From: the human T2T-CHM13v2.0 reference genome, Homo sapiens
DNA: 64,000 nucleotides
Direction: 5' to 3' (one strand)
Assembly (NCBI RefSeq): GCF_009914755.1
Contig: NC_060925.1
The notes under the pieces were generated by a model. The model ran no database searches and was not told where the DNA came from. It worked only from the letters and a program-made list of their open reading frames with translations. Numbering within the stretch: the stretch's first letter is position 1; the number at the start of each line of letters is the position of its first letter. This document shows, piece after piece, positions 17,001-20,000 of the stretch. The position numbers and the translations under genes are program-made.

Positions 17001-20000
17001 CAATGTCCTCGAGGTTCATCTGGGCTGCAGCCTGTGTCAGAACATCCCTCCTCTTAAGGGTGAATCCTATTCCATTGTGTGGATGGAACACGTTGTGCTC
17101 ATCCATTCATGTGCTGAGAGGCACCTGGGTTGTTCCATTTTCCAGCTTTCATACCTGCTGCCATTATGAACATTCACACATGTGTTTGTGTGGACATATG
17201 TTTTCACTTCTCTTGGGTATACACCTGGGAGTGGAGCTGCTGGGTCACAGGGAAACTCTGTGCTTAATCCCTTGGGAAATCAGATGTTTTCCAATGTGGC
17301 TGCACTTTATATTCTCAATGCCCCACTTTCTTTAATTATTATAGGATTAATGAATATTTCTGTATCTTGACTTAGTTTCTATTACTTTTCTTTTCTGGTT
17401 TTGTCAGTTTCATCTAAATTTTCAGATTTATTGTCATGAATCTATTAATTGCTTTCTCCTGTTTTTGTCTGAAGAATCTGTAGGGATTCCCCTAGACAGG
17501 AAACTAATGCAATGAGCCTCATCTTTCTGGATTAGTCTCAGATATTTCCAAGAAGTGAGCTGTCATCTCTACGGCATGTCTACTCTTATGTAATTACTGT
17601 TGGCACTATTTCCAATGTCTTCCTTCTATTTCCTTTCACGTTGGCCTGTAGTTCTCTCTCTAGCTTCTCAACAGTACTGTGCGTTCTAGTTTCTCTCCTC
17701 TTCTAAAATGTGCACTTAAAGCTATCACTGTCATCATTTCAGTTGCTCCTAAACTGGAACCTCAGTCACAACTTCAGGTCACGACGCAGAGCCTGAGTCA
17801 CAGCCTCAGGGACCTCTACAAAGCCTGAGTCATAGATTCAGTTCACCATACAGAGCCTGAGTCATAGCCTCAGGTAAGCTCAAGCTGATCATAGTGGGGG
17901 CTGTGACCCCAGTCACAACCTTAGGTCACCATAGACAGCCTGAGTCACAGACTCAGGTCACTATAGACAGCCTGAGTCACAGCCCCAGTTCACCACATAG
18001 AGCCTGAGTCACAGCCCCAGTTCACTATACAGAGCCTGAGTCACAGCCTCAGTTCACCACAGAGTCTGAGTCACAGCCCCAGTTCACCATACAGAGCCTG
18101 AGTCACAGCTCAGTTTGCCATACAGATCCTGAGTCACAGCCCCAGTTCACCATACAGAGCCTGAGTCACATCCCCTGTTCACCATAGCAGAAACTGTGAC
18201 CCCAGCCACAGCCTCAGGTTGCCAAGCAGACCCCAGATCACACCCCCAGTTCACATACAGAGCCTGAGTCACAGCCTCAGTTCACCATACAGGGCCTGAG
18301 TCAGACACAGTTCACATACAGAGCTTGAGTCACAGCTCCAGTTCACTATAGTGGGGACTGTGACCCCAGTAACAGCCTAGGTTTCTGTTTGCCATAGAGA
18401 GCCTGAGTCACAATCTCAGGCTGCCAAACAGAGACCAAGTCACAGATTCAGGTCATGCTGCAGAGCCTGGTTCACCATCTGGCCCTCTCCTCCTTCTTCT
18501 CTCGAGATTCCCTCTGTGCCCTAAGCCCTCTGAGTTGGTGAGTTCTCTCCCCTCCTCTAACATTCTGTATCCTCCATCCTTGGAGTGTCTCTTACAGGGA
18601 AATTAGACTAAGCCCTTAACCACACTCCAATCAACCCAGGCTTTCGCCTGGAGCAGTTCATCCCCTAGGGTCTGGAGCCTCAGTTTACCCTCTTGTCTCA
18701 TCCTTTCTGTTGACCATGCCTGTCCTGGGTTTTTTCATCCTCTTTTCCTCTTTTTGGGTTTTTGTTGTTGTTGTTGTTATTCCACATATTCCCTCTGCTC
18801 ATCTGAAGTTGCACAATATTTTTTGTAATTTCCACAGTCACCTTCAATGCTATACCATGTGTCTGTGACCTACCTAAGCCTGATGCTGGTTAGTGCCTTC
18901 TCTACCTGGGCAGCACAGGGCCAGAGAACATATTCCCATCGACTCTCCCGCCCTGAGTTATGTGCTAATTGCATGTTTTACCTCCATTTGGGGGCCCAAC
19001 AAGACACTGTTTTATCAGTCAGCACTACCTCCATGGCACCTTCAGAGCCCACGCTCTGCCCTCACTCCTTCCTGCATCTTGTTATGCAGCAGGGCCTCCA
19101 CCTCCTGAGGTCGGCACCAGCTTGTTGGTGTCCTCACGCCTCATCTGTATTCTTCTTTCTCAGGATGGCTTTTATGATTCTGTCTTCAATCTTGTGCAGT
19201 TTTTCTTTTTCTTTTTCTTTTTTTTTTCAGACGGAGTCTCGCTCTGTTGCTCAGGCTGGAGTGCAGTGGTGCCATCTCAGATCACTGCAACTTCCACCTC
19301 CTGGGTTCAAGCGATTGTTCCTGCCTCAGCCTCCCAAGTAGCTGGGATTACAGGCAGCTGCCAACATGCCCAGCTAATTTTTTTGTATTTTTAGTAGAGA
19401 CGGGGTTTTGCCATGTTGGCCAGGCTGGTCTCAAATTCCTAACCTCAGGTGATCCACCTACCTTGGCCTTTCAAAGTGCTGGGATTACAGGAGTGAGGAA
19501 CTGCACCTGGCCACCCAGCTAATTTTTGTATTTTTAGTAGAGACGGGGTTTCACCATGTTGGTCAGGTTGGTCTCAAACTCCTGACCTCAGGTGATCCAC
19601 CCACCGCAGCCTCACAAAGTGCTGGGATTACAGGCATGAGCCACTGCACCCAGTCTTTTTTTTTTTGAGACATGGTCTTTGCTCTGTTCAAGCTGGAGGG
19701 CAGTGGCGCTATCTTGGCTCACTGCAGCCTCCAGCTCCAGGACTCAAGTGATCCTCCTTCCTTAGCCTCCCAAAGTGCTGGGATCACAGGCACGAGGCAC
19801 TGTGCCCAGCATGCTGTGTGCTTCTAATGTGTCATGTTCCAGGGTGAACTTATTTTTACTTTTGGCCTGGGAAGACACTGGGCTTCTGGAATCTTCTTTA
19901 CAGCTTTATTCAATTTCGGAAAACTCTCATCCTCTCCCCTCATACATATCAGCCCTGTCCCACTCCCGCACCCTTCTCAGCTGCCTCTGGCATGGCCTCC

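What the first reader, a model, noticed from the sequence alone, without database searches (positions are those of the whole stretch)
17760..18475. Minisatellite-encoded AP-1 / nuclear-receptor enhancer array in WNT9A intron 1 (candidate copy-number rheostat)
Seen: 15 perfect TGAGTCA (AP-1/TRE) sites in ~620 bp, mostly spaced 30-32 bp apart. That is about 3 helical turns, so bound dimers would sit on the same DNA face. Most units also carry an AGTTCA/AGGTCA nuclear-receptor half-site starting 14 bp after the TRE start (about 14 counted). A given 7-mer is expected roughly once per 8 kb counting both strands. Known: FOS/JUN bind TGAGTCA, and I recall c-Jun being reported to drive Wnt9a in the joint interzone through a different enhancer. 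Inference: tandem expansion built a homotypic AP-1 enhancer 13 kb into the gene. Its unit number could tune WNT9A induction by MAPK/stress signalling, with possible nuclear-receptor cross-talk. I know of no description of this element.
Basis: partly seen in the sequence, partly recalled or inferred. Interest (0 to 1): 0.85.

Follow-up and report, generated by a model that had tools for sequence, protein, structure and literature searches.

The report
AP-1-site minisatellite in WNT9A intron
An old, single-locus 32-base tandem repeat in the first intron of WNT9A carries 15 perfect AP-1 binding sites and is already catalogued as a reporter-assay enhancer, so it is a real but fairly ordinary example of a known kind of element, with no sign so far that its repeat number varies.

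Summary
There are 15 perfect TGAGTCA sites at 17794-18410, all on one strand, inside a 21-unit, 32-bp minisatellite (17760-18465) in WNT9A intron 1.

It is a single-locus array, not a dispersed element or LTR. It is not undescribed: RefSeq has two functional records over it, a 'P300/CBP strongly-dependent group 1 enhancer' and a silencer reporter fragment 'S7'.

On chr1, 3 of 6 periodic-TRE arrays lie in group 1 enhancer records, a class covering 0.056% of the chromosome. None of 3 reversed-motif control arrays overlaps any record. One of the three is the classic MS32 minisatellite, with 212 TREs. AP-1-site arrays therefore behave as p300/CBP-dependent enhancers in that assay.

Genome-wide, such arrays are no commoner than control arrays (77 against 194 matches), so a chance motif that was amplified is explanation enough.

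The rheostat idea is unsupported. Units are degenerate (about 70-85% identity, against 97% in MS32), and the record has the same length in both references. The nuclear-receptor idea fails: no half-sites are paired.

[quoted passage not shown] Its endogenous target is untested.

The parts
17760..18465 (+). 32-bp minisatellite of 21 units (29-51 bp each), followed by a partial 22nd unit to about 18475
   Evidence: TRF; unit segmentation and alignment. A typical unit is 18128-18159.
17794..18410 (+). Cluster of 15 perfect TGAGTCA (TRE / AP-1 consensus) sites, all in one orientation
   Evidence: The TRE is intact in 15 of 21 units.
17971..18199 (+). Most homogeneous core run: 7 units, mean pairwise identity 0.85, 7 perfect TREs. 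The midpoint of the RefSeq enhancer record (about 18032) falls inside it.
   Evidence: the midpoint is arithmetic.
17901..17918 (.). Variant junction 1: the short palindrome CTGTGAC, four bases, then its near-complement. The unit after it has lost the TRE.
   Evidence: block alignment.
18194..18211 (.). Variant junction 2, the same palindromic insert. It marks a duplicated multi-unit block.
   Evidence: TRF 103-bp period.
18358..18375 (.). Variant junction 3, the same palindromic insert
17433..18632 (.). RefSeq functional element: 'P300/CBP strongly-dependent group 1 enhancer', exactly 1200 bp
17398..18583 (.). RefSeq functional element: silencer, 'S7 fragment used in the reporter construct'
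   Evidence: S1-S10 were tested in K562 by Huang et al. 2019 (passages).
8541..30813 (-). WNT9A intron 1 (NM_003395.4), the host of the array
   Evidence: Annotation supplied with the finding.

Best explanation
This is a locus-specific, old and degenerate 32-bp minisatellite whose unit happened to contain a consensus TRE. Unit slippage and at least two multi-unit block duplications multiplied that site into a same-orientation cluster of 15 AP-1 sites within 617 bp.

Such a cluster works like a multimerised-TRE reporter. FOS/JUN dimers load onto it and recruit p300/CBP. That makes the fragment an autonomous, p300/CBP-dependent enhancer in an AP-1-high cell line. This is the RefSeq record; I take it to come from HCT116 STARR-seq.

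In the chromosome it is most likely an accessible AP-1 landing pad inside the Polycomb-marked WNT9A domain. It would be open in several cell types where WNT9A is low, and able to boost a nearby promoter only when AP-1 is high and the domain is de-repressed. It behaves as a fixed-length element, not a variable dial.

Shown: the sites, the array anatomy, single-locus status, the two functional records, and the strong association of TRE arrays with the group 1 class.

Inferred: AP-1 occupancy at this locus, p300/CBP recruitment by AP-1 (established knowledge of FOS/JUN, recalled), the source study of the enhancer label, the target gene, and stability in the population.
For: - Sites and array.
- Single locus: a whole-genome DNA search of 17480-18760 returns only itself. 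The unit 18128-18159 at up to 3 mismatches gives 5 hits, all in the array, and 0 for the control. The right flank is unique. The nearest dispersed element ends at about 17320, 440 bp away.
- Functional records.
- The four class names on chr1 (110, 161, 126 and 142 records) match the cofactors of the COF-AID STARR-seq in HCT116 as described in bioRxiv 10.1101/2024.11.29.625864 (passages).
- Of 6 chr1 loci with three or more TREs at 27-37 bp spacing (list complete only to 235.50 Mb), 3 lie in group 1 records and 1 in a group 4 record. Group 1 covers 0.056% of chr1, so about 0.003 loci were expected. By contrast, 0 of 3 reversed-motif arrays overlap any record.
- MS32 (L025) has 212 TREs and the same label.
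- All 15 TREs of the 1200-bp record lie in the array, and its midpoint lies in the core run.
- The TRE block is the best-kept part of the unit: non-consensus cells are 15 of 147 against 113 of 525 elsewhere (Fisher p = 0.0019). The TRE is intact in 15 of 21 units, against 4.8 expected at the mean column identity. Alignment-free 7-mer counts agree.
- Precedent: in LTR10A/F VNTRs the AP1 motif number correlates with FOSL1 and H3K27ac signal in HCT116 (passages).
Against: - No occupancy, accessibility or perturbation data for this locus could be examined here.
- The enhancer evidence is episomal.
- The same fragment is recorded as a silencer. In Huang et al. such candidates are DNase sites under H3K27me3, present in three or more cell lines, whose presence anticorrelates with host-gene expression. 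S7 lowered reporter output in K562 more than at least 3 of 4 controls. However, all 14 inserts, controls included, lowered it.
- In my random sample the group 1 class was only weakly richer in TREs than the other classes: 13 of 20 against 26 of 60 with at least one TRE, Fisher p = 0.077. The label alone therefore does not prove AP-1 dependence.
- The most conserved 7-column window is AGTCACA, not the TRE itself, which ranks 4th of 32. Unit cells are not independent, so the conservation signal is only suggestive.
- The link from the RefSeq label to the source study is recalled; the paper is not held.
Confidence: 0.6

Rival explanations
1. Neutral bystander. The minisatellite arose and drifted without function, its TREs are incidental, and the reporter activity does not translate into any effect on WNT9A or a neighbouring gene in the chromosome.
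For: - Periodic TRE arrays are not over-represented in the genome. There are 77 matches at 18 loci for periods of 30-37 bp, against 194 for the reversed control. For 27-37 bp there are 469 against 254, of which about 210 belong to the single MS32 array.
- MS32, a hypervariable minisatellite, earns the same enhancer label, which shows that the assay rewards any TRE array.
- A TRE is expected in about 0.4% of random 32-bp units (arithmetic).
- The array is CpG-depleted, with observed/expected 0.04.
Against: - The TRE block is better preserved than the rest of the unit.
- By the silencer study's definition the site is DNase-hypersensitive in three or more cell types, which implies factor occupancy in native chromatin.
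Confidence: 0.25
2. Silencer. In its native context the array recruits repressive complexes, through AP-1-related bZIP repressors or other repeat-binding factors, and helps to keep WNT9A off.
For: - RefSeq silencer record over 17398-18583.
- S7 was one of 5 of 10 candidates that lowered K562 reporter output more than at least 3 of 4 controls.
- The same paper reports AP-1 enrichment among its predicted silencers in K562, HepG2 and HeLa S3.
Against: - All 14 inserts, including the 4 controls, reduced the reporter.
- The identity of S7 with this locus rests on the RefSeq label, because the coordinates are in a closed supplement.
- The same fragment is an enhancer in another cell line.
- EP300 peaks were depleted in that study's silencers, whereas this element is classed as p300/CBP-dependent.
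Confidence: 0.1
3. A variable-number AP-1 enhancer whose unit count tunes WNT9A induction by MAPK or stress signalling, with nuclear-receptor cross-talk through the AGTTCA/AGGTCA half-sites.
For: - The TRE cluster and the enhancer record.
- c-Jun is reported to regulate Wnt9a in joint formation (review passages).
- Copy-number-dependent AP-1 VNTRs exist: PDYN 68-bp and LTR10.
Against: - Units are degenerate: mean pairwise identity is 0.70 overall and 0.85 in the core, against 0.97 between adjacent MS32 units. Such arrays are usually stable (established knowledge of minisatellites, recalled).
- There is no net length difference between T2T and the reference on which the 1200-bp record was defined.
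- Half-sites are never paired: the closest starts are 19 bp apart, and there are no TGACCT or TGAACT sites. They are also the less conserved part of the unit.
- The review places c-Jun binding at the Wnt9a promoter, not in this intron.
- The silencer study's definition has the site open where WNT9A is low.
Confidence: 0.05

Closest known systems
LTR10A/LTR10F internal VNTR enhancers (Ivancevic et al., Sci Adv 2024; passages read)
   Same: - A tandem array of a roughly 30-bp unit, each carrying an AP1 motif.
- Many motifs in one orientation (up to 33 in reference copies).
- Enhancer behaviour in HCT116, with motif number correlating with FOSL1 and H3K27ac signal.
   Different: - Those arrays sit inside a dispersed primate retroviral LTR family and are highly length-polymorphic.
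- The WNT9A array is a single-locus minisatellite in unique sequence with a different, degenerate 32-bp unit.
- It shows no length difference between two references.
PDYN promoter 68-bp VNTR (passages in PMC3934978)
   Same: One AP-1 site per repeat unit. This is the textbook case for 'repeat number sets inducible expression'.
   Different: - PDYN has 1-4 nearly identical units in a promoter, with known common length alleles tied to mRNA level.
- Here there are 21 diverged units deep in an intron, with no known alleles and no known target.
MS32 (D1S8) hypervariable minisatellite, chr1:235.49 Mb (RefSeq record; L025)
   Same: - Each unit carries TGAGTCA (212 sites at 29-bp spacing).
- It carries the same RefSeq 'P300/CBP strongly-dependent group 1 enhancer' label.
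   Different: - MS32 units are about 97% identical.
- Its record grew from the standard 1200 bp to 7029 bp in T2T, which is real length instability.
- It lies between NID1 and GPR137B, where the LTR10 paper places an unstable LTR10A VNTR. That the two are the same locus is my inference.
Synthetic multimerised-TRE reporters (recalled, not from a call)
   Same: Several tandem TGAGTCA sites confer AP-1- and phorbol-ester-responsive transcription on a minimal promoter. This is the simplest model for why the fragment scores in STARR-seq.
   Different: Those are artificial and have short, even spacing. This array is natural, with 32-bp spacing and 6 units in which the site has decayed.

Membership tests
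Minisatellite / VNTR | Head-to-tail tandem array of a 10-100 bp unit | tested here: met
   TRF finds a 32-bp period. There are 21 units.
Minisatellite / VNTR | Unit number varies between individuals | tested here: inconclusive
   Only two haplotypes could be compared, and only indirectly. The RefSeq record is 1200 bp in T2T, like 474 of 539 such records, so there is no net change. Population data were not available.
LTR10A/F AP1 VNTR enhancer | Array of roughly 28-30 bp units, each with an AP1 motif | tested here: met
   This holds in the general sense. The unit is 32 bp, and 15 of 21 units have a perfect TRE. The unit sequence is different.
LTR10A/F AP1 VNTR enhancer | Lies inside a copy of the dispersed LTR10 retroviral LTR family | tested here: not met
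   Array plus flanks match only themselves in the genome. The unit is found nowhere else at up to 3 mismatches. The nearest dispersed element ends 440 bp away.
LTR10A/F AP1 VNTR enhancer | FOSL1/AP-1 occupancy and H3K27ac in AP-1-high cells | not testable with these tools
P300/CBP strongly-dependent group 1 enhancer (RefSeq class) | Recorded as active in the reporter assay and lost on p300/CBP depletion | tested here: met
   RefSeq record at 17433-18632. I saw only the label. The source paper is not held and its tables are supplements.
P300/CBP strongly-dependent group 1 enhancer (RefSeq class) | Activity attributable to AP-1 sites | tested here: inconclusive
   For: 3 of 6 chr1 periodic-TRE loci are in this class, against 0 of 3 control arrays in any record. 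Weak: in the class sample 13 of 20 elements have at least one TRE, against 26 of 60 in the other classes, p = 0.077. No mutagenesis was possible.
Nuclear-receptor response element | Two half-sites as a direct, inverted or everted repeat with 0-8 bp spacing (or an extended monomer site) | tested here: not met
   The 15 RGKTCA sites are never closer than 19 bp start to start. There are 0 TGACCT and 0 TGAACT. The 3 TGACCC sites each lie 19 bp, start to start, upstream of the next half-site-like sequence. The requirement itself is recalled knowledge.
Silencer (H3K27me3-marked DNase site anticorrelated with its gene; Huang et al. 2019) | Predicted by that scheme and repressive in the K562 reporter | tested here: inconclusive
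   The RefSeq label 'S7 fragment' matches the S1-S10 series. S7 is among the 5 strongest. The coordinates are in the closed Supplemental Table S4, and all inserts, including controls, lowered the reporter.

The most novel reading that the evidence does not exclude
The array is the human JNK/c-Jun-responsive enhancer of WNT9A (and perhaps WNT3A) in joint-forming and articular tissues. On this reading it is kept as a dense AP-1 platform by selection on the TRE block, and rare length alleles or TRE-disrupting variants in its homogeneous core contribute to the hand-osteoarthritis and height signals at WNT9A.
Probability: 0.06. Interest if true: 0.7.

Novelty: new member of a known kind. Interest (0 to 1): 0.33.

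Why it matters
WNT9A is a joint-specification gene reported to lie downstream of c-Jun (review passages). It is also a hand-osteoarthritis locus and a height locus. A dense AP-1 platform in its first intron is therefore a reasonable candidate for coupling MAPK/JNK signalling to WNT9A.

More generally, the chr1 tally suggests a simple rule: any tandem array that carries a TRE in its unit scores as a p300/CBP-dependent enhancer in episomal assays, whether or not it does anything in the chromosome. That is worth remembering when such catalogue entries are used as evidence of function.

As it stands, this element is one more example of a known kind. It is already catalogued, and it has no demonstrated endogenous target or length variation.

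Tried and rejected
1. LTR10 or other transposon origin. This was my first guess from the roughly 30-bp AP-1 unit. I rejected it because array plus flanks match only themselves and the unit occurs nowhere else. The absence of a masked_repeat row turned out to be weak evidence, since an unmasked old dispersed element lies at about 16898-17320.

2. Class-wide TRE enrichment test. I drew 40 of the 109 other group 1 records and 20 each of 161, 126 and 142 records of groups 2-4. Records with at least one TRE numbered 13/20, 11/20, 7/20 and 8/20. The reversed control gave 2, 4, 6 and 4. Group 1 against the rest gave Fisher p = 0.077 and Mann-Whitney p = 0.034. This is too weak to carry the argument, so the array-overlap test replaced it.

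3. Nuclear-receptor element: no paired half-sites.

4. PRDM9 13-mer hotspot motif in 17400-18700: none on either strand.

5. Helical phasing as a designed feature: not robust to the assumed helical repeat.

6. Molecular-clock dating from unit divergence. This gave 69-165 My for the core and 157-377 My for all units. These values are implausibly wide and depend on alignment and on array dynamics, so I use them only to say there is no sign of recent expansion.

7. Telomere-like repeats near the pseudogene cluster: none.

8. Papers. Searches for WNT9A + tandem repeat + AP-1 (3 papers) and WNT9A + VNTR (3 papers) found nothing on this array. PMC10250210 proved irrelevant, being a mouse T-cell study. 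The sources I most wanted were not held: Neumayr et al. 2022, Raisner et al. 2018 (a wrong guess at the label's source) and Kan and Tabin 2013. Supplementary tables are closed. These are Huang Table S4, the STARR-seq tables and the VNTR-eQTL catalogues, and any of them may hold the S7 coordinates, activity values or a genotype record for this array.

The listing has 30, which makes the total 77.
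Full report
OBSERVATION. The window holds 24 TGAGTCA sites, against 10.82 +/- 3.38 in dinucleotide shuffles, and 0 of 100 shuffles reached 24. Fifteen of the sites lie between 17794 and 18410, all on the + strand. The gaps between them are 32,32,83,32,32,32,30,32,31,32,103,32,29,78 bp. 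There are 14 AG[GT]TCA half-sites. Nine start exactly 14 bp after a perfect TRE and one starts at +12. TRF reports 32-bp arrays at 17760-17875 and 17911-18350 with 73-77% matches. The site is in intron 1 of both annotated WNT9A transcripts.

ANATOMY. Anchoring on the TRE block divides 17760-18465 into 21 units of 29-51 bp, 13 of them exactly 32 bp, followed by a partial unit. A typical unit is the stretch 18128-18159. Fifteen units have a perfect TRE and six have a decayed one.

Three units carry the same odd insert: a short palindrome (CTGTGAC, four bases, then its near-complement) at 17901, 18194 and 18358. The three blocks around these inserts align at 81% mean column identity, and TRF also sees a 103-bp period. 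So the array grew by multi-unit block duplication as well as by single-unit slippage.

The edge units are the most diverged. A core of 7 units (17971-18199) is the most uniform, with mean pairwise identity 0.85 against 0.70 for all 21. The array is almost free of CpG, with 2 sites and observed/expected 0.04.

NOT A DISPERSED ELEMENT. My first guess was the AP-1-bearing internal repeat of LTR10 retroviral LTRs. That is wrong here. A whole-genome DNA search with 17480-18760 finds only itself. The unit at up to 3 mismatches gives 5 hits, all inside the array, and none for the control. The right flank is unique apart from one 44-bp match. The left flank contains a discrete old dispersed element at about 16898-17320, roughly 70% identical to its relatives with 2728 first-look candidates. 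That element ends 440 bp before the array. It is not in the masked-repeat list, so that list is not exhaustive.

HOW UNUSUAL. Fifteen sites count as one event: a motif in a unit that was then amplified. A TRE on either strand is expected in about 0.4% of random 32-bp units (arithmetic).

Genome-wide, three TREs at 27-37 bp spacing occur 469 times, against 254 for the reversed motif. About 210 of the 469 belong to one array, L025. Restricting the search to periods of 30-37 bp gives 77 matches at 18 loci, against 194 for the control. The WNT9A array has 7 of these matches, a subtelomeric chr7 array has 30, three chrX arrays have 9, 6 and 8, and the rest have 1-3. TRE-bearing arrays are therefore not over-represented. 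The WNT9A array is one of the larger ones, but it is not unique.

ALREADY CATALOGUED. RefSeq has two functional-element records over the array.

The first is a silencer at 17398-18583, labelled 'S7 fragment used in the reporter construct'. This label fits Huang et al. 2019 (PMC6442386; passages read). [quoted passage not shown] S7 was one of five that lowered output more than at least 3 of 4 control inserts, although all 14 inserts lowered it. Their candidates are DNase-hypersensitive sites under H3K27me3, present in three or more of 25 cell lines, whose presence anticorrelates with the host gene. The S7 coordinates are in a closed supplement, so the link to this locus rests on the RefSeq label.

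The second is an enhancer at 17433-18632, labelled 'P300/CBP strongly-dependent group 1 enhancer'. This is one of four class names on chr1, with 110, 161, 126 and 142 records. The names match the cofactors of the COF-AID STARR-seq in HCT116 attributed to Neumayr et al. 2022 in a preprint I could read in passages. The Nature paper itself is not held, so this attribution is recalled and inferred.

DO TRE ARRAYS EXPLAIN THE ENHANCER LABEL? I ran two tests.

(a) Class sample. Records with at least one TRE numbered 13 of 20 in group 1, and 11, 7 and 8 of 20 in groups 2, 3 and 4. The reversed control gave 2, 4, 6 and 4 of 20. Group 1 against the rest gave Fisher p = 0.077. TREs are therefore common in all four classes (39 of 80, against 16 of 80 for the control), and group 1 is only mildly richer.

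(b) Array overlap. One search's listing reaches chr1:235.50 Mb and shows six chr1 loci with periodic TREs. Three lie in group 1 records: a 3-unit, 33-bp array at 20.32 Mb, the WNT9A array, and the array at 235.49 Mb. One lies in a group 4 record and two in none. Group 1 covers 0.056% of chr1, so about 0.003 loci were expected. None of the three chr1 arrays of the reversed motif overlaps any functional record.

The 235.49 Mb array is annotated as the MS32 29-bp VNTR. It has 212 TREs at 29-bp spacing. In the WNT9A record all 15 TREs lie in the array, and the record's midpoint (about 18032) falls in the core run.

I conclude that the array is very probably the source of the reporter activity. I also conclude that the assay rewards any TRE array, whether or not it is functional in vivo.

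IS THE TRE KEPT? The 5' part of the unit is the best preserved. Column identity is 0.90 over the TRE against 0.78 elsewhere. Non-consensus cells number 15 of 147 against 113 of 525 (Fisher p = 0.0019). At the mean column identity, 4.8 intact 7-mers were expected, and 15 are seen. Alignment-free counts agree: TGAGTCA 15, AGTCACA 15, CAGTTCA 10, and the rest 9 or fewer.

However, the top window is AGTCACA and the TRE window ranks 4th of 32. Units also share ancestry, so the cells are not independent. The signal is suggestive of constraint or biased homogenisation, not proof of it.

RHEOSTAT, NUCLEAR RECEPTORS, PHASING. Adjacent MS32 units are 97% identical, and its record grew from the standard 1200 bp to 7029 bp in T2T. 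The WNT9A units are far more diverged, and its record is exactly 1200 bp, like 474 of 539 records. So there is no net length change between the two references. That is only two haplotypes, but nothing points to instability.

Half-sites are never paired. The closest starts are 19 bp apart, and no inverted partners exist. Their columns average 0.74 identity. The same-face argument depends on the assumed helical repeat: R = 0.80 at 10.5 bp per turn, 0.66 at 10.4 and 0.38 at 10.6.

WHAT IS KNOWN. LTR10A/F elements contain a 28-30 bp VNTR that includes the AP1 motif, with up to 33 motifs. Motif number correlates with FOSL1 and H3K27ac signal in HCT116, and the arrays are polymorphic in the germline and in tumours (Sci Adv 2024, passages). 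The PDYN promoter has 1-4 copies of a 68-bp unit with one AP-1 site each, and more copies give more mRNA (PMC3934978, passages). The concept is therefore established.

For WNT9A, reviews state that c-Jun regulates it in joint formation and binds its promoter (PMC6797607 and PMC10285172, passages). The primary paper is not held. WNT9A is a hand-osteoarthritis locus (PMC9918232, passage). A 3'UTR poly(AC) repeat associates with height (PMC11614882, passage). My two searches for a description of this array found none. Closed supplements of VNTR catalogues could still list it.

VERDICT. This is a single-locus, old, degenerate minisatellite whose unit carries a TRE. Amplification made a 15-site AP-1 platform that acts as a p300/CBP-dependent enhancer in an episomal assay and as a mild repressor in another cell line. 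It is probably open in native chromatin in several cell types where WNT9A is low.

The most likely mechanism is FOS/JUN loading and p300/CBP recruitment, effective on a nearby promoter only when AP-1 is high and the Polycomb state allows it (confidence about 0.6). A neutral-bystander reading remains substantial (about 0.25). It is a new member of a known kind and is already present in a public catalogue.

LIMITS.
- No occupancy, accessibility, population or cross-species data could be examined.
- The chr1 array list is complete only to 235.50 Mb.
- Matches in closed regions are not shown.
- Two labels are tied to their source papers by name only.

Noticed in passing
L025 (G000:C1:235492916-235499944): The classic MS32 29-bp VNTR (RefSeq minisatellite record) carries 212 TGAGTCA/TGACTCA sites at 29-bp spacing and is labelled a P300/CBP strongly-dependent group 1 enhancer. 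Its record is 7029 bp in T2T instead of the usual 1200. It lies between NID1 and GPR137B, where the LTR10 paper reports an unstable LTR10A VNTR. That the two are the same locus is my inference.
   Followed up: partly
L087:722-794 (G000:C1:20321372-20321444): Three perfect 33-bp units, each with a TRE, sit between CAMK2N1 and MUL1 inside another group 1 enhancer record. So as few as three periodic TREs coincide with that label.
   Followed up: partly
window 16898-17320: A discrete old dispersed element, about 68-80% identical to its relatives with 2728 first-look candidates, is absent from the RefSeq masked-repeat list. It ends 440 bp left of the array and is not part of it. I did not classify it.
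   Followed up: partly
window 2720-2739 and 2871-2888: Two AC dinucleotide runs (10 and 9 units) lie in the WNT9A 3'UTR. A UK Biobank study reports a 3'UTR poly(AC) repeat of WNT9A associated with standing height. I did not establish which run is meant.
   Followed up: partly
G000:C7:159124027-159125075: A subtelomeric chr7 array with a 34-bp unit carrying a TRE gives 30 triplet matches. It is the largest TRE array in the 30-37 bp period range.
   Followed up: no
G000:C23:6087048-6087354, 7397383-7397599, 8032541-8032817: Three chrX arrays with a 30-bp unit each carry a TRE (9, 6 and 8 triplet matches). I suspect they are the coding repeats of the VCX gene family. That is recalled, not tested.
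   Followed up: no
G000:C2:14935326-14935437: A 35-bp-unit array on chr2 shares a 12-base string (the TRE plus its flanks) with the WNT9A unit, and it contains the same short palindrome arms as the WNT9A variant junctions. This may be chance.
   Followed up: no
80 sampled chr1 enhancer records (L007-L086): Across all four cofactor-dependency classes, 39 of 80 records contain at least one TRE, against 16 of 80 for the reversed control 7-mer. So AP-1 sites are common in the whole HCT116 catalogue, not only in group 1.
   Followed up: yes
window 50077-63492: The right end of the window holds a cluster of pseudogenes (NACA-like, FLJ44672-like, CICP26, SEPTIN14P17) of the sort seen in subtelomere-like duplicated blocks (recalled). 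No run of three or more telomere hexamers occurs anywhere in the window.
   Followed up: partly
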